Part shown: positions 5,747-33,132 of the stretch, one piece after another | Numbering within the stretch: position 1 is the first letter of the stretch | Layout: every line of letters starts with the position of its first letter | DNA from: a virus | Taxonomy: Duplodnaviria > Heunggongvirae > Uroviricota > Caudoviricetes | Length of the DNA: 36,986 nucleotides | IMG/VR virus record: IMGVR_UViG_2671180460_000002 | Reading direction: 5' to 3' (one strand) | Position numbers and translations under genes: made by a program | The notes under the pieces: model-generated | Databases searched by the model: none | Seen by the model: the letters and a program-made list of their open reading frames with translations, nothing else | What the model was told of the DNA's origin: nothing

Positions 5747-6391
5747 ATGACGACTGAAAATAAAGTTAAGCAATACACGAAAACTGAAGCGCCTGAAGGT
5801 TACTGGGTGGATGCACGTGGCGTAATGACACCTGAAAGCCTGATTAAGGATATTGACCGCGACCGCGAGCAGCTGGTCGGTGAGATTGTCGAACTGGTGA
5901 TTGCTGCCTCCGCCTCGCTGCGTGATTTGAAACTGCGCGCGTTTGGCGATATTCAGGCATTTATTGACCTGTCGGCTGAGAAATACGGCGCTGTGAAAGG
6001 CGGTAAAAAAGGGAATATCACGCTTTACAGCTTTGACGGGTGTTACAAGATTCAGCGCGCCATGCAGGACCGTATCGCGTTTGATGAACGCATTCAGACC
6101 GCGAAGTCGCTGATTGATGATTGCCTGGCTGACTGGACGGAAGGTGCACGCCCTGAAATTAAGGCCATCATCAGTGAGGCATTCAGCACGGACAAGGAAG
6201 GCAACATCAACACCGGTCGCGTTCTGGCCCTGCGTCGCCTCGAGATTGAGGACGAACGCTGGAATAACGCCATGTCACTGATTGGTGAAGCCGTCCAGGT
6301 GATTGGCAGCAAAAGCTATATCCGCGTGTATGAGCGCGTCGGTGATTCTGCTGAATACCGCGCAATCCCGCTTGATATTGCAGGGGTTTAA
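5747..6391 (+). CDS. hypothetical protein, resembles DUF3164-type proteins of Mu-like prophages
   Basis: 214 aa acidic protein at the position after B where DUF3164 proteins occur in Mu-like phages; assignment from memory, not searched. No resemblance to Mu Gam. Confidence 0.45.
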   Translation: MTTENKVKQYTKTEAPEGYWVDARGVMTPESLIKDIDRDREQLVGEIVELVIAASASLRDLKLRAFGDIQAFIDLSAEKYGAVKGGKKGNITLYSFDGCYKIQRAMQDRIAFDERIQTAKSLIDDCLADWTEGARPEIKAIISEAFSTDKEGNINTGRVLALRRLEIEDERWNNAMSLIGEAVQVIGSKSYIRVYERVGDSAEYRAIPLDIAGV

Positions 6392-9149: not shown

Positions 9150-9310
9150 ACCAGCAAACCAGAATAAGCGATAAGAGTCTGACCAGACTGATTGCTGATG
9201 CGGACAAGGTGCTGGAGCGGAACACCCCGGTTGCCGATGAGGAATGGTGGCAGGATTTCCGGGCCGCAATGCTGGAACTTCAGGAACGTCGTCGGGAGGA
9301 GTTGAAGTGA
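9146..9310 (+). CDS. hypothetical small protein (54 aa)
   Basis: GTG at 9146 overlapping the upstream TGA, AGGAGG 8 nt upstream. Not in the supplied track because it is under 60 aa. Confidence 0.3.
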   Translation: MNQQTRISDKSLTRLIADADKVLERNTPVADEEWWQDFRAAMLELQERRREELK

Positions 9311-11682: not shown

Positions 11683-11710
11683 CAGCCCCTGCCTTGCAGG
11701 GGCTTTTTTG
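11683..11710 (+). terminator. intrinsic terminator ending the early operon
   Basis: AGCCCCTGC-ctt-GCAGGGGCT stem-loop followed by TTTTTTG, 6 nt after the GemA-like stop. Confidence 0.7.
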
Positions 11711-11713
11711 TGG

Positions 11714-11743
11714 TCTGTACAGGCGATCATGTATGGCTATAAT
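11714..11743 (+). promoter_or_regulatory. putative sigma70-type promoter for the Mor/C-family gene
   Basis: Consensus -10 TATAAT at 11738-11743, 30 nt upstream of the start codon; -35 is weak (TGTACA). Confidence 0.4.
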
Positions 11744-11772: not shown

Positions 11773-12240
11773 ATGCAGACCTTCAGTGAAACAGATCTTC
11801 GCGATGCGCAGGCACTACTGCCCGATTCCGTGCAGCAACTGATTAGCGTGATTGGCTTTCCCGCTCTGACCCGGTTAATTCGTTCTTTTGGTGGTGTGAC
11901 GTTAAGCGGTAAAACCGGCGCACACACCGAACGCACCGGCGGTGTCCATGCCCTGTTACATGACGTGCTGACCGAAGACGAAATCAACAAACTGATCCGC
12001 TTTCTTGGCGGTGCGCCGTTTTATATTCCCCGTTGCGATCATGCGTTACGTGCCCTGCGTAACTCCCGTTTTATGGCTGATTTACAGCAACATATAAAAG
12101 GCGGATGCTCACACCGGCAGGCGCTGGCACTGCTTTGTCCACGTTACGGAATTTCAGACCGGTACGCATGGCAACTGATACACCGACGACAAAAACAGAT
12201 TTCGCTGAAGAGCCCCACCCAGGTGGGGCTTTTTGATTAA
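11773..12240 (+). CDS. Mor/C-family transcriptional activator (late gene activator)
   Basis: Contains the Mor-family ...GGAPFYIPR... segment followed by a C-terminal HTH-like region; located after the early terminator and before the lysis and structural genes. Confidence 0.8.
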   Translation: MQTFSETDLRDAQALLPDSVQQLISVIGFPALTRLIRSFGGVTLSGKTGAHTERTGGVHALLHDVLTEDEINKLIRFLGGAPFYIPRCDHALRALRNSRFMADLQQHIKGGCSHRQALALLCPRYGISDRYAWQLIHRRQKQISLKSPTQVGLFD

Positions 12241-12265: not shown

Positions 12266-12544
12266 ATGACCAACTATACGGCCCTTGCCGAGTATACGGC
12301 CTACTCAGAGCAGGCCCGGGATGCTGCCGGACGCCGCTTCGCTTATATGAAAAATCTGTCCAGCCAGCTAAACCGAATGGCCGAACAACCGGATATGATT
12401 GTTCATGAAGAAGCGTTGCAGTGTGCCATTGCTGATATTATCGCCAGTGAAAACGAGATGCGAGCCGCTCTGGAAAAAGCAAACGCCTCTGCTCCGCTTT
12501 GCAATAAACCTCTTATTACGCCGGATTCCCTTTCCCGCTTCTGA
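12266..12544 (+). CDS. hypothetical protein
   Basis: ATG at 12266 preceded by AAGGAG; 92 aa. Confidence 0.4.
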   Translation: MTNYTALAEYTAYSEQARDAAGRRFAYMKNLSSQLNRMAEQPDMIVHEEALQCAIADIIASENEMRAALEKANASAPLCNKPLITPDSLSRF

Positions 12545-12563
12545 TTTATCACCCCGCCACGGT

Positions 12564-12580
12564 GGGGTGCTGAACTCCCC
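12564..12580 (+). promoter_or_regulatory. late-promoter dyad motif copy 1 (GGGGTGCTGAACTCCCC)
   Basis: One of three copies of GTGCTGAAC-N-CCC; overlaps a second dyad CACCCC-N8-GGGGTG. Lies upstream of the lysis cassette. Confidence 0.5.
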
Positions 12581-12663
12581 CAGCAGTACCTGCCACTCCA
12601 TACCGCCTATCCTGTCCACTCAGTCTGTAAAACACGCAGGGATAACACTCACAGGAGAATTTC

Positions 12664-13056
12664 ATGTCTGAACCCATTTCAGGCAGCGGCGCGGTGGCAC
12701 TGACCATTGGCGGTGCCGGTGTGTACGGCCTTATCACCAATACCGATTTCGGTGTGGTCGTGGGCGCATTTGCCGGGGCGCTGTTTGTGGTCACCCAGCA
12801 AAAAGAAATCCCGGTCTGGCGCATGATTATCCACCTGATTATCGCGTTTGTGGTCGGCGTTCTGGGGGCCGGTGTGGCGGCGTCACTGATGCAGTGGCTG
12901 ACCCACTACAACGACAAACCCCTCGACGCGTTATGTGCGGTCGGTGTCTCGGCGCTCTCAATCAAGATTCTGACGTTTATTTATAAACAGGATATTTCAT
13001 CGCTGTTTGGCCTGTTTTCACGGCTGCGCGGCGGAGGGGGTGAAAATGGTAAGTAG
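12664..13056 (+). CDS. putative holin-like membrane protein
   Basis: 130 aa with several hydrophobic helices, AGGAG RBS; first gene of the lysis cassette. Confidence 0.45.
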   Translation: MSEPISGSGAVALTIGGAGVYGLITNTDFGVVVGAFAGALFVVTQQKEIPVWRMIIHLIIAFVVGVLGAGVAASLMQWLTHYNDKPLDALCAVGVSALSIKILTFIYKQDISSLFGLFSRLRGGGGENGK

Positions 13057-14938: not shown

Positions 14939-15679
14939 ATGCAAAAACAGATTATTGGTAACGCAACGTTGTATTGCGGTGATGTTCTTGATGTGCTGCC
15001 GGCGTTATCTGAACGTTTTGATGCCGTCATTACCGACCCGCCTTACAGCAGTGGTGGCACACACAAATCAGACCGCAGTATGGCCCCTTCGGACAAGTAT
15101 GTCGGTCACACCCACTATGCCGAGTTCAGCGGGGATAACCGCGACCAGCGCAGCTGGGCATACTGGAGCACCCTGTGGATGTCCGGGGCTGCCCGCCTTG
15201 TGCGCCCCGGTGGTTATTTCATGGTGTTCAGTGACTGGCGACAGCTTCCCACCATGACCGACGTTTTTCAGGCCGGTGGTGTGCTGTGGCGTGGTCTGGT
15301 TGTCTGGGATAAAACGCAGGCTTCCCGTGCGCCACACACTGGCTATTTCCGGCATCAGGCCGAGTATGTGGTCTGGGGCAGCAACGGAAAACTCGACAAA
15401 TGCCCGCACGGTGGCCCGTTCCCGGGTGTGATTACGCAGCGTGTTGTCCCGTCCGCAAAACTGCACATGATCGCAAAGCCGGTTCAGCTGATGGCCGAGC
15501 TGGTTAAACCGCTGGCACCGGATGCGCACGTTCTCGATCCGTTTATGGAAAGTGGCACCACCGCCATCCCTGTACTTGCCCGTGGCGGACGGTTTACCGG
15601 CATTGAAATGACTAACCAGTATTTTGATATCGCCTGCGCACGTATCGAAAAAGCGCAGGCAGAAGCAGCGCAGGTGTGA
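14939..15679 (+). CDS. DNA methyltransferase, beta-class amino-MTase (N6-adenine or N4-cytosine)
   Basis: Motif IV DPPY (AVITDPPYSSGG) near the N-terminus and motif I (LDPFMESGTT) near the C-terminus; this order defines the beta class. No restriction partner nearby. Confidence 0.85.
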   Translation: MQKQIIGNATLYCGDVLDVLPALSERFDAVITDPPYSSGGTHKSDRSMAPSDKYVGHTHYAEFSGDNRDQRSWAYWSTLWMSGAARLVRPGGYFMVFSDWRQLPTMTDVFQAGGVLWRGLVVWDKTQASRAPHTGYFRHQAEYVVWGSNGKLDKCPHGGPFPGVITQRVVPSAKLHMIAKPVQLMAELVKPLAPDAHVLDPFMESGTTAIPVLARGGRFTGIEMTNQYFDIACARIEKAQAEAAQV

Positions 15680-20621: not shown

Positions 20622-20774
20622 GTGGCCAGAAGCGCGCTGTAATCATCTGTGACAACATAAACGCCTCACGGATGAGGCATTACAGCACCGCACCCCATAA
20701 ATGCTGTCAGAATCGTTTTTAAAATGGTTTTAAAAACGGTTTTATTTCCCCTTTTATCCTTTCGCGTTATGGCA

Positions 20775-20789
20775 GGGTGCTGAACACCC
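20775..20789 (+). promoter_or_regulatory. late-promoter dyad motif copy 2 (GGGTGCTGAACACCC)
   Basis: Perfect GGGTG-N5-CACCC dyad in the 200-bp gap before the protease/scaffold gene; an AT-rich TTTTAAAA repeat block lies upstream at 20715-20745. Confidence 0.5.
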
Positions 20790-20821
20790 TCCACAGTACC
20801 CCGTGTTCCCCTTCCGTCATC

Positions 20822-21964
20822 ATGACGCGTATGAAGATGAACATTGCGGCGTTAAGCCTCGAAATTACTAAAGCAACCCACAGCGAAATCCAGCTGTTTC
20901 CGGCAGGTGAGTTCAGTGCAGTGGATGGTCGCCCACATACCGATGAAGTCGAAAGCGGTAAATGGGTGCTGACTGCCGGACTGGCCGCGCAGCTTGTCGC
21001 GCAGGTGGCAGCCCGTACCACGCCATTTGTCATTGATTACGAACATCAGACGCTGCGCGCCGTAAACAACGGCAAGCCTGCCCCGGCGGCGGGCTGGTTC
21101 AGCCAGGTGGAATGGCGTGAAGGCGCGGGCCTGTATGCCATCGGTGTGGAGTGGACGGAGAACGCGGCGGCCATGATTGCCGCCGGTGAGTACAAATTTA
21201 TTTCCCCGGTATTTGGATACAACAAGCGCGGTGAAGTCATCGAACTGTTACACGCCGCACTGACCAATACCCCGGCGCTCGACGGTATGGACGCGGTCAT
21301 GCTGGCTGCGGCCAGCCGTCTTGCGAGTCTGTCAACTGAAACGGAGACCACAACGGTGGATGAAGAACTGTTAAACGATTTGCTGTCCAGTTTGCGCTGG
21401 ATGCTTAACCTCCCGGTGACCTCAACGGCGGAAGATATTAAAAGCGAGCTGCAAAAGGTCGTTGACATGATTTCGAACGGTCAGGGAACGGCGGCGGCAT
21501 CCGTCAGCCTGCTGGCCCTGCTGAATCAGAAAGACGAGCAAATCGCCAGCCTGTCAGCAAATGCCTATGACCCGACGAAGCATATCCCTCTGACGGCATA
21601 TGAAGAACTTCAGGGACGTTATGCCGTACTGGTGCAACAGTCCGGCGAAGCCGAAGCCGGGGCACTGATTCAGGCGGCGCTGTCTGACGGGCGACTGCTT
21701 CCGACGCTGGAAGACTGGGCGAAAGATTACGCTCGTCGCGATATCAACGGTTTTAAAACCTGGCTGGATAAAACCACCCCGCTTGCCGCACTCAGCAGCA
21801 CCCAGACCGGCGGCAAACCACCCAAAACGCCGTCACCGGCCCCGGCGCAGATTAAAACTGGCGATGACGTCGATGTCGATATCGCCATTTGTTCCATGAT
21901 GGGCACTGATCCAGAAGATATCGCCCGTTATGCAGGAAACGACTATTACGCAGGAGATGAGTAA
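20822..21964 (+). CDS. head protease/scaffold protein (Mu I-like)
   Basis: Position and size as Mu gp32/I. Start uncertain (ATG at 20822, 20831 or 20837; none has a strong RBS); the track start at 20777 lies inside the promoter motif. Confidence 0.7.
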   Translation: MTRMKMNIAALSLEITKATHSEIQLFPAGEFSAVDGRPHTDEVESGKWVLTAGLAAQLVAQVAARTTPFVIDYEHQTLRAVNNGKPAPAAGWFSQVEWREGAGLYAIGVEWTENAAAMIAAGEYKFISPVFGYNKRGEVIELLHAALTNTPALDGMDAVMLAAASRLASLSTETETTTVDEELLNDLLSSLRWMLNLPVTSTAEDIKSELQKVVDMISNGQGTAAASVSLLALLNQKDEQIASLSANAYDPTKHIPLTAYEELQGRYAVLVQQSGEAEAGALIQAALSDGRLLPTLEDWAKDYARRDINGFKTWLDKTTPLAALSSTQTGGKPPKTPSPAPAQIKTGDDVDVDIAICSMMGTDPEDIARYAGNDYYAGDE

Positions 21965-32728: not shown

Positions 32729-32741
32729 GTGCTGAACACCC
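32729..32741 (+). promoter_or_regulatory. late-promoter dyad motif copy 3 (GTGCTGAACACCC)
   Basis: Third copy of the motif, beginning 1 nt after the gp45-like stop and 53 nt before the gp46-like ATG. Confidence 0.45.
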
Positions 32742-32781
32742 TCACCTGATTCTGACCTGTCCATGCTGCCAGACTGGCGGC

Positions 32782-33132
32782 ATGGACCAGACGATTTCAC
32801 CTGCAACCGGCGACTACGAACGCCGCCGGATTTATACACTTCATAACGCGGTTTATCTGCGACTGGCGACACCGCTTGGCAGTTACTGGGCGGATGCGTC
32901 GCTGGGGTCACGCCTGCACGAACTGAAGCGGGAAAAAGACGTTTCCCGTGTTCACCGGCTGGCGGCGCAGTATGCCAGCCAGGCACTTCAGCCCCTGCTT
33001 GATGACGGGCGGGCGACAGCAATTACCGTTGACACGAAAGCGGGCCAGCGCGGCTGGCTGTTGCTGTTAATCACCGTCACGGATAACGCGGGCACACCGC
33101 AGACGTTTGAACACCCTGTGAGGATTATGTAA
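32782..33132 (+). CDS. baseplate protein (Mu gp46-like)
   Basis: 116 aa directly upstream of the baseplate-J-like gene, as Mu gp46. Confidence 0.65.
   Translation: MDQTISPATGDYERRRIYTLHNAVYLRLATPLGSYWADASLGSRLHELKREKDVSRVHRLAAQYASQALQPLLDDGRATAITVDTKAGQRGWLLLLITVTDNAGTPQTFEHPVRIM

What the first reader, a model, noticed from the sequence alone, without database searches (positions are those of the whole stretch)
12545..12663. Conserved dyad motif GTGCTGAAC-N-CCC heads three late operons: candidate Mor/C activator sites
The same 13-17 nt element occurs three times in the 37 kb, each in a non-coding gap at the start of a late gene block: lysis (12564-12580), head protease (20775-20789) and baseplate (32729-32741). 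Copy 2 is a perfect GGGTG-N5-CACCC dyad. In Mu, late promoters Plys, PI, PP and Pmom have poor -35 regions and depend on the C activator binding a dyad site; this element encodes exactly one Mor/C-family protein (11773..12240). Copy 1 also overlaps a second dyad, CACCCC-N8-GGGGTG.
Basis: partly seen in the sequence, partly recalled or inferred. Interest (0 to 1): 0.72.

Follow-up and report, generated by a model that had tools for sequence, protein, structure and literature searches.

The report
Late promoters of a Mu-like prophage
The repeated GTGCTGAAC-N-CCC element marks three activator-dependent late promoters of a Mu-like prophage, as in phage Mu but with a different recognition sequence, and two of them appear to start transcription directly on the start codon.

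Summary
GTGCTGAACNCCC occurs exactly three times, all on the + strand and all in gaps before the holin, head-protease (I) and gp46 baseplate genes; shuffles give 0.00. It is absent from 160 kb of E. coli chromosome sampled outside the related prophage.

- Each copy is followed at a fixed 41 bases by a -10-like hexamer (TATCCT, CATCAT, CAGACT), with no -35.
- Relatives whose single Mor/C homologue is 41-82% identical keep a related box at the same three places while the flanks diverge.
- Among about 70 more distant Mu-like loci, those with a second copy in the DNA held (25 phage groups) repeat their own box 2-3 times. Box type tracks the activator's recognition helix.
- The family-wide symmetry is centred about 43-44 bases upstream of the predicted start, as for Mu C and Mor.
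- The window has one Mor/C gene, homologous to Mu C over its length.

Two further points are new. The protease and gp46 ATGs lie 6-7 bases after the -10, without a Shine-Dalgarno sequence, which predicts leaderless mRNAs. At gp46 a covarying hairpin holds the -10 in its loop and the AUG in its 3' arm.

Verdict: a new member of a known kind.

The parts
11684..11710 (+). Intrinsic terminator after gemA (AGCCCCTGCCTTGCAGGGGCT plus a T-run). It ends the early transcript upstream of the activator gene.
   Evidence: conserved in L001, L002, L003 and L006
11716..11743 (+). Sigma-70-type promoter TGTACA-16-TATAAT (10 of 12) with a conserved GATC in the spacer. It is the likely 'middle' promoter of the activator gene and carries no Mor/C-type box.
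11773..12240 (+). The only Mor/C-family gene (155 aa), in the position of Mu C. It has the FLGGxxFYIP beta-linker, a C-terminal HTH and a C-terminal QVGLFD motif that aligns with the clamp-binding QPDLF of Mu C.
12266..12544 (+). Small 92-aa ORF co-transcribed with the activator; function unknown. It is not conserved across the clade that shares the box.
12551..12568 (+). GC-rich hairpin just after the stop codon of the small ORF. Its 3' arm overlaps the first two bases of box 1, and no U-tract follows.
12567..12584 (+). Box 1 (GTGCTGAACTCCCCCAGC), the lysis-operon late promoter; predicted position -53 to -36.
12608..12613 (+). -10 hexamer TATCCT of promoter 1. The predicted start is about 12618-12622, the leader carries the Shine-Dalgarno AGGAG at 12654-12658, and the holin ATG is at 12664.
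20777..20794 (+). Box 2 (GTGCTGAACACCCTCCAC), the head-operon late promoter.
20818..20823 (+). -10 hexamer CATCAT of promoter 2. Seven bases separate it from the protease-I ATG at 20831 and there is no Shine-Dalgarno sequence, so a leaderless mRNA is predicted.
32729..32746 (+). Box 3 (GTGCTGAACACCCTCACC), the baseplate/tail-fibre late promoter. It starts at the base after the gp45-like stop codon.
32770..32775 (+). -10 hexamer CAGACT of promoter 3. Six bases separate it from the gp46-like ATG at 32782, so a leaderless mRNA is predicted.
32759..32787 (+). 13-bp RNA hairpin GUCCAUGCUGCCA-GAC-UGGCGGCAUGGAC. The -10 lies at the loop and the gp46 AUG lies in the 3' arm. It can form only on transcripts that begin upstream.

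Best explanation
The three copies are the activator boxes of three late promoters of a Mu-like prophage, the counterparts of Mu Plys, PI and PP.

Each promoter has three features: an 18-base box (GTGCTGAAC-N-CCC-YC-NNN; clade consensus GCTGAAs-CC-nTCAnC, an imperfect dyad), no -35 hexamer, and a -10 hexamer exactly 41 bases from the first G of the box.

The single Mor/C-family protein (11773-12240) is made from its own sigma-70 promoter behind a terminator. I infer that it binds the boxes at about -43.5 and recruits or activates host sigma-70 RNA polymerase, as Mu C does.

Promoter 1 gives a leadered lysis mRNA. Promoters 2 and 3 are predicted to start on or next to the A of the protease-I and gp46 start codons, giving leaderless mRNAs.

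Shown here: the motif statistics, spacing, conservation, co-variation and protein homology. Inferred: binding, dependence on the activator, and the transcription start points.
For: Statistics:
- 3 exact copies against 0.00 expected, + strand only.
- The composite 'box plus nAnnnT at fixed spacing' finds exactly these three sites with no mismatch.
- There is no sigma-70 -35/-10 pair at site 1 or site 2.

Footprinting in relatives:
- A Salmonella relative (activator 65% identical, different lysis genes) has GTGCTGAACCCCGTCAAC and GTGCTGAACCCGGTCAAC before its holin and protease genes, in otherwise diverged gaps.
- Klebsiella phage ST405-OXA48phi1.1 (activator 41.5% identical) has CCACTGAAGCCC-N-TCAA at all three homologous gaps.
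- Xenorhabdus and Aeromonas relatives have related boxes at the lysis/late-operon and protease positions.
- The -10-like hexamer is at offset 40-42 in every case.

Family-wide pattern:
- 62 of 67 distinct protease-I upstream regions and 47 of 49 gp46 upstream regions have nAnnnT 6-8 bases before the ATG; other offsets reach at most 11.
- The best dyads are centred at -43/-44.
- In 25 phage groups the phage's own box recurs 2-3 times per locus, for example GCGGAAsCsCTTCCGCC three times in L037.
- Box type tracks the activator's recognition helix: SDRxxWxL with CTGAA, DRQV[ML]xI with CCGAAT, xRHIRNI with CGGAA.

Protein:
- Pfam Mor above its cut-off.
- hhalign to Mu C 95.9%, E = 6e-9, 112 columns including the C-terminal clamp-binding motif.
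- It is the only such ORF in the window.

Precedent: Mu C binds a 16-bp imperfect dyad centred at -43.5 in promoters that lack a -35 (PMC2582627). Mor does the same at Pm (abstract of PMC4390567, as listed).
Against: - There is no experimental evidence of binding, of activator dependence or of any 5' end in this element.
- The right half of the dyad is degenerate in the window's own copies 2 and 3.
- The box does not resemble Mu's C site in sequence.
- The related loci share ancestry, so the counts are not independent events.
- At sites with a hairpin, the A and T of the nAnnnT hexamer also form the closing pair of the loop, so part of that signal could be structural.
Confidence: 0.8

Rival explanations
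1. The boxes are bound by a different factor: another phage protein, such as the 92-aa product made with the activator, or a host regulator. On this view the Mor/C homologue acts elsewhere.
For: Binding was not tested. A small gene always lies between the activator gene and the first box.
Against: The small ORF is homologous only within the enterobacterial sub-lineage (40% to L003). It shows no significant similarity to the equivalents in L005 and L008, which keep the CTGAA box, and it has no Pfam domain. The only regulator-like protein that follows the box type across lineages is the Mor/C homologue. A host factor would not explain phage-specific boxes in phages of many hosts.
Confidence: 0.08
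2. The element works as RNA: the G-run/C-run dyad around CTGAA forms a hairpin that terminates, stabilises or antiterminates transcripts coming from upstream, rather than acting as a DNA site.
For: Copy 1 overlaps a hairpin. Some close relatives have a perfect 9-bp-arm repeat, CTGGGGGTG-CTGAA-CACCCCCAG, at site 1. Conserved RNA hairpins do exist nearby, at site 3.
Against: The conserved part is the asymmetric core CTGAAC-N-CC, not the arms. The triplet 5' of CTGAA varies (GTG, CCG, CCA, CTG, TTG) without compensation. Copy 3 has only 3-bp arms. No U-tract follows and no Rfam family matches. The fixed distance to a -10 hexamer, and not to any RNA feature, is what is conserved.
Confidence: 0.05
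3. The boxes are Mor/C sites and promoters, but transcription starts upstream of the ATG or translation starts further downstream, so the protease and gp46 mRNAs have ordinary short leaders and are not leaderless.
For: Start sites are predicted from -10 spacing only. The Klebsiella phage gp46 starts with GTG, which is poor for leaderless translation in E. coli. Mu itself has an I leader with an AGGA Shine-Dalgarno sequence.
Against: The ATG lies 6-7 bases after the hexamer in 62 of 67 and 39 of 49 distinct sequences. SD-like 4-mers occur in 6 of 67 and 13 of 49, against 37 of 46 for the other prophage genes. Protein alignments begin at this ATG in most relatives. A start upstream of the hairpin would leave the gp46 AUG sequestered in every transcript.
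Confidence: 0.3
4. The three copies are chance matches or remnants of a repeat with no function.
For: None beyond the short length of the motif.
Against: 0.00 expected against 3 observed. All copies are on one strand and in gaps. They are conserved at homologous junctions in relatives whose flanks have diverged. The motif is absent from 160 kb of host DNA.
Confidence: 0.01

Closest known systems
Phage Mu C-dependent late promoters (Plys, PI, PP, Pmom)
   Same: - An activator box overlapping or upstream of the -35 position and centred near -43.5.
- A recognisable -10 and no -35.
- Promoters ahead of the lysis, head (I) and tail/baseplate gene blocks.
- An activator of the Mor/C family encoded just upstream of the lysis genes, behind a terminator and its own promoter (PMC2582627).
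   Different: - The box sequence is unrelated. Mu's site is TTAT-N5-6-ATAA according to PMC12867686 (seen here as ATAA followed by a C-run in the Plys and PI sequences), against GCTGAAC-N-CC-N-TCA.
- The third promoter lies before gp46, not before gp44 (P).
- No mom gene or promoter was found.
- There is no separate Mor, so the cascade has two tiers.
- The I and gp46 start codons lie at the predicted start, whereas Mu I has an inferred leader of about 26 nt with a Shine-Dalgarno sequence.
- There is an AUG-sequestering hairpin at the third promoter.
Phage Mu Mor / middle promoter Pm
   Same: The same protein family. [quoted passage not shown] Relatives of the window phage that carry two paralogues (the Xenorhabdus type, L007) have a box of the same kind in front of the second paralogue, a Mor-to-C cascade like Mu's.
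   Different: The window has no Mor-tier protein. Its activator gene is preceded by a near-consensus sigma-70 promoter without a box. The protein aligns better with C (112 columns, E = 6e-9) than with Mor (64 columns, E = 1e-5).
Leaderless phage mRNAs, such as lambda cI from PRM (from my own knowledge)
   Same: Transcription is predicted to start on the A of the AUG. There is no Shine-Dalgarno sequence and the start codon is a 5'-terminal AUG.
   Different: Here the leaderless genes would be late structural genes driven by an activator-dependent promoter. The arrangement is conserved across dozens of Mu-like lineages. It is not demonstrated experimentally.
Mu mom translation-inhibition structure relieved by Com (from my own knowledge)
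   Same: An RNA stem that sequesters a start codon in a Mu-type late transcript.
   Different: No Com-like factor is implied. The stem can form only on read-through transcripts, because its 5' arm lies upstream of the predicted start. The -10 hexamer sits in the loop.

Membership tests
Mor/C family of phage transcription activators (Pfam PF08765) | Significant match to the family profile | tested here: met
   Pfam Mor 28.7 bits against a cut-off of 24.9. hhalign of a 15-sequence profile to Mu C gives 95.9% probability, E = 6e-9; to Mu Mor it gives 82.6%, E = 1e-5.
Mor/C family of phage transcription activators (Pfam PF08765) | Glycine-containing beta-strand linker (LGGxxxYIP) between the dimerisation and DNA-binding domains | tested here: met
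   FLGGAPFYIPRCD aligns with FLGGRQFYIPCGD of Mu C. G79, Y84, I85 and P86 are invariant and F83 and R87 nearly invariant among 15 homologues; G80 is not conserved.
Mor/C family of phage transcription activators (Pfam PF08765) | C-terminal helix-turn-helix DNA-binding domain | tested here: inconclusive
Mor/C family of phage transcription activators (Pfam PF08765) | Clamp-binding motif (QxxLF) at a terminus, reported as general for the family (PMC12867686) | tested here: met
   The C-terminal QVGLFD aligns with QPDLF of Mu C. Q150, L153 and F154 are nearly invariant. This is sequence evidence only.
Mor/C family of phage transcription activators (Pfam PF08765) | Binds DNA as a dimer or tetramer and activates sigma-70 RNA polymerase | not testable with these tools
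   Needs biochemistry.
Mu-type activator-dependent late promoter | Recognisable -10 hexamer and no -35 hexamer | tested here: met
   TATCCT, CATCAT and CAGACT at a fixed offset. No sigma-70 -35/-10 pair at sites 1 and 2.
Mu-type activator-dependent late promoter | Imperfect dyad of about 16 bp centred near -43.5 | tested here: inconclusive
   Relative to the predicted start, the clade's dyads peak at -43/-44. The window's own copies keep the left half (GCTGAAC) but have a degenerate right half, and their strongest dyad is centred at -48. The start site has not been measured.
Mu-type activator-dependent late promoter | Placed ahead of the lysis, head and tail late gene blocks | tested here: met
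   Before the holin, protease I and gp46 genes. The third site is two genes downstream of Mu's PP position.
Mu-type activator-dependent late promoter | Transcription depends on the activator; the activator footprints the box | not testable with these tools
   Supported only indirectly, by box/recognition-helix co-variation.
Leaderless mRNA | Start codon AUG with no Shine-Dalgarno sequence upstream | tested here: met
   ATG at 20831 and 32782. SD-like 4-mers occur in 6 of 67 and 13 of 49 homologous upstream regions, against 37 of 46 other prophage genes.
Leaderless mRNA | The 5' end of the transcript coincides with the A of the AUG | not testable with these tools
   Predicted from the 6-7 bases between the -10 hexamer and the ATG. 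Needs 5' end mapping.

The most novel reading that the evidence does not exclude
In a large clade of Mu-like phages, though not in Mu itself, the Mor/C-dependent promoters for the head protease and for gp46 fire directly on the start codon.

A covarying RNA hairpin carries the -10 hexamer in its loop and the AUG in its 3' arm. It would silence that same SD-less AUG on read-through transcripts.

On this reading, translation of the distal late genes is gated by which promoter made the RNA. Only the leaderless transcript, which lacks the 5' arm, would be translated. The dozens of phage-specific box and recognition-helix pairs would also give a natural recognition code for the Mor/C family.
Probability: 0.4. 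Interest if true: 0.65.

Novelty: new member of a known kind. Interest (0 to 1): 0.5.

Why it matters
**For this element.** The result gives a testable map of its late transcription: three promoters, one activator, and a two-tier cascade instead of Mu's three-tier one.

**For the field.** Mor/C biology rests almost entirely on Mu itself. Here the same promoter architecture, a box centred near -43.5 at fixed spacing to a -10, is seen in about 70 distinct Mu-like lineages. Each has its own box sequence and a matching recognition helix. That is ready material for specificity-swap experiments and for reading the recent Mor/C-RNA polymerase cryo-EM structures.

**If confirmed.** The predicted leaderless late genes and the AUG-sequestering hairpin would be an unreported way of tying translation to promoter choice in a well-studied phage group.

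Tried and rejected
- **Nucleotide searches of the phage collection.** Near and distant searches with the Mor-holin region found nothing. Relatives were reached through E. coli genomes, protein look-ups and IMG/VR instead.
- **Weaker motif copies.**
  - GAGCGGAACACCC at 9215 has a counterpart in L001 that lies inside an annotated CDS. In the window the ATG at 9244 comes before the position where a -10 would fall.
  - The 1-mismatch composite at 6350 lies at the end of an early ORF, and 0.76 such hits are expected by chance.
  - Both were rejected.
- **Mis-typed pattern.** My first composite pattern had the wrong spacing and found nothing. It was corrected.
- **Alternative sigma factor.** I considered GAAC as the -35 of an ECF-sigma promoter. 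There is no conserved partner element at 16-17 bases; the TCTGA in copy 3 is only 10 bases away. Rejected by inspection.
- **Known RNA families.** Rfam found none in the window.
- **Sequence likeness to Mu's C site.** I considered aligning ATAAtCCC with TGAACaCCC. The two lie 8 bases apart relative to the -10, so I make no such claim.
- **Literature.** Five full-text searches and two genome papers gave no description of this box or of leaderless late genes in Mu-like phages. Subscription-only papers, such as the Mu and BcepMu genome papers, were not searchable.

Full report
**What the window is.** The window is a Mu-like prophage. Its gene order is repressor, ner-like gene, transposase A, transposase B, early genes, gemA, one Mor/C gene, lysis genes, head genes and tail genes. 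It is about 92% identical over the Mor-holin region to a prophage inserted in eutC of E. coli E2348/69 and present in 58 of 5,426 complete E. coli genomes. No deposited phage genome matches it at the nucleotide level.

- GTGCTGAACNCCC occurs exactly three times, all on the + strand, against 0.00 expected.
- Each copy lies in a non-coding gap: before the holin gene (ATG 12664), before the Mu-like protease I gene (ATG 20831), and between the gp45-like stop and the gp46-like ATG at 32782.
- The E. coli relative has the same three copies.
- The pattern is absent from 160 kb of E2348/69 chromosome sampled away from the prophage.
- In 1.84 Mb of Mu-like phage loci it occurs only on the gene strand.

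**Anatomy of the three sites.** I count from the first G of GTGCTGAAC as offset 0.
- All three copies have a -10-like hexamer at offsets 41-46: TATCCT, CATCAT and CAGACT.
- A pattern combining the box core with nAnnnT at that spacing finds just these three sites with no mismatch.
- None has a sigma-70 -35/-10 pair.
- At site 1 the holin ATG is 97 bases from the box and is preceded by AGGAG.
- At sites 2 and 3 the ATG is at offsets 54 and 53, that is 7 and 6 bases after the hexamer, with no Shine-Dalgarno sequence.

**Relatives found through the activator.**
- A Salmonella prophage has a 65% identical activator and different lysis genes. It carries GTGCTGAACCCCGTCAAC before its holin and GTGCTGAACCCGGTCAAC before its protease, in gaps that are otherwise unalignable.
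- Klebsiella phage ST405-OXA48phi1.1 (41.5% identical) carries CCACTGAAGCCC-N-TCAA at all three homologous gaps.
- Salmonella (60%), Xenorhabdus and Aeromonas (54%) relatives carry CCGCTGAAC, CTGCTGAAC and TTGCTGAAC boxes.
- In every one the hexamer is at offset 40-42 and the protease ATG at offset 53-54.
- The triplet 5' of CTGAA varies freely. The conserved core is CTGAA(C/G)-(C/A)C-N-N-TCA.

**More distant Mu-like phages.**
- A search with the protease gave 79 loci down to 37% identity. One with gp46 gave 80 loci.
- 62 of 67 distinct protease upstream regions have nAnnnT with 6 or 7 bases before the ATG.
- 47 of 49 gp46 upstream regions have it with 6-8 bases. At other offsets the counts are at most 5 for the protease set and at most 11 for the gp46 set.
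- Each phage has its own dyad box in the same place, for example GCTGAAGCCCTTCAGC, CCGAATCCATTCG, GCGGAAGCCCTTCCGC, TTAACCTGGGTTAA and GACGAACCCCTTCGTC.
- Where a second copy lies within the DNA held (25 phage groups), that box recurs 2-3 times per 21-kb locus.
- The best dyads are centred 43-44 bases before the ATG. A separate group of 13 sequences, all close relatives of the window, peaks at -48.
It is real in this lineage, and some relatives have 9-bp arms at site 1. It is already lost in a relative with 78% protease identity, L028, which instead has a perfect GCTGA-N6-TCAGC centred at -43.5.

**The activator.**
- The window has one Mor/C ORF on either strand, even at E <= 10, using an HMM that detects both Mu Mor and Mu C.
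- Its Pfam Mor score is above the cut-off.
- A 15-sequence profile aligns to Mu C with 95.9% probability, E = 6e-9, over 112 columns.
- That alignment includes the FLGGxxFYIP linker and a C-terminal QVGLFD opposite the clamp-binding QPDLF of Mu C.
- The match to Mor is shorter.
- Xenorhabdus-type relatives have two paralogues, and the window protein is the orthologue of the second, C-position one.
- Across lineages the recognition helix goes with the box: SDRxxWxL with CTGAA, DRQV(M/L)xI with CCGAAT, xRHIRNI with CGGAA.
- The 92-aa ORF between the activator gene and box 1 is not conserved across the clade.
- Monomer structure searches were uninformative.

**Comparison with Mu.**
- Mu C binds a 16-bp imperfect dyad centred at -43.5 in promoters with a -10 but no -35 (PMC2582627). 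Mor does the same at Pm (abstract of PMC4390567, as listed). Cryo-EM shows tetramers covering nearly three helical turns upstream of the -35 position (bioRxiv 10.1101/2025.05.02.651988).
- The window's architecture is the same, but its box is unrelated in sequence.
- Its third promoter sits before gp46 rather than gp44.
- It has no Mor tier. The activator gene follows an intrinsic terminator (11684-11710) and a TGTACA-16-TATAAT promoter with a conserved GATC.
- In Mu the I start codon lies well downstream of the inferred PI -10 and has an AGGA. The leaderless arrangement is therefore a feature of this wider clade, not of Mu.

**The hairpin at site 3.**
- Bases 32759-32787 fold into a 13-bp stem. 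The 51-nt stretch folded gives -23.8 kcal/mol, z = -4.8.
- The -10 lies at the loop and the AUG in the 3' arm.
- In 36 of 48 distinct gp46 upstream regions at least two bases of the AUG are paired.
- A gap-free alignment of 16 sequences is 91.8% paired, against 27-43% when the partner is slid by 1-3 columns. Four pairs change on both sides, and many G.U pairs are compatible only with + strand RNA. I chose those 16 sequences for equal length, which is a bias.
- Many distant lineages have the same device before the protease gene, but the window does not.
- The 5' arm lies upstream of the predicted start, so the stem can form only on read-through RNA. I infer that it blocks the SD-less AUG there.

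**Verdict.** As a late-promoter set it is a new member of a known kind. The family-wide box and helix pairs, the predicted leaderless late genes and the promoter-embedded hairpin are the parts worth following up.

Noticed in passing
window 32759-32787: A 13-bp RNA hairpin with the -10 hexamer at its loop and the gp46 AUG in its 3' arm. It covaries across relatives; in Klebsiella phage L005 the ATG-to-GTG change is matched by GTCCAT-to-GTCCAC in the 5' arm. It can form only on read-through transcripts.
   Followed up: partly
window 20831 and 32782; loci L010-L168: The protease-I and gp46 start codons lie 6-8 bases after a -10-like hexamer, without a Shine-Dalgarno sequence, in nearly all of about 115 distinct Mu-like upstream regions. 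This predicts leaderless late mRNAs. Mu itself is an exception.
   Followed up: partly
window 11684-11743: The activator gene has its own intrinsic terminator and a near-consensus sigma-70 promoter (TGTACA-16-TATAAT) with a GATC in the spacer. The unit CTGTACA-nnC-GATCA-n4-TGGCTATAAT is conserved in relatives down to 60% activator identity. How it is kept silent in a lysogen, and whether Dam methylation or replication controls it, is unknown.
   Followed up: partly
window 12551-12568; L001 20853-20872; L002 10779-10796: A GC-rich hairpin directly after the stop codon of the small ORF overlaps the 5' edge of box 1, with no U-tract. Its loop-proximal pairs differ between relatives. Other relatives (L012, L019 and similar) have a different upstream gene and instead a perfect 9-bp-arm repeat around CTGAA.
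   Followed up: partly
window 12222-12237 (protein residues 150-155): The activator ends in QVGLFD, a near-consensus beta-clamp-binding motif. It is conserved in homologues and aligns with the functional QPDLF of Mu C.
   Followed up: partly
L007 4315-5786 (also L034, L051, L071): Xenorhabdus-type relatives carry two Mor/C paralogues. A box, CCACTGAACCCCTTCAAC, lies just upstream of the second, giving a Mu-like Mor-to-C cascade that the window lineage lacks.
   Followed up: no
window 20715-20750: The gap before box 2 contains A/T-rich repeats (GTTTTTAAAATGGTTTTAAAAACGG). They resemble the sequence around the strong gyrase site between G and I in Mu (Mu 17879) and recur in L003 and L005. This is possibly a gyrase site.
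   Followed up: no
window 12266-12544: A 92-aa ORF made with the activator has no Pfam domain. It is 40% identical to the equivalent in a Salmonella relative and is replaced by unrelated genes in Klebsiella and Aeromonas relatives.
   Followed up: partly
window 14939-15679: A DNA methyltransferase gene sits inside the late region. A Salmonella relative has one within its lysis cluster. No mom-like gene or fourth box was seen.
   Followed up: no
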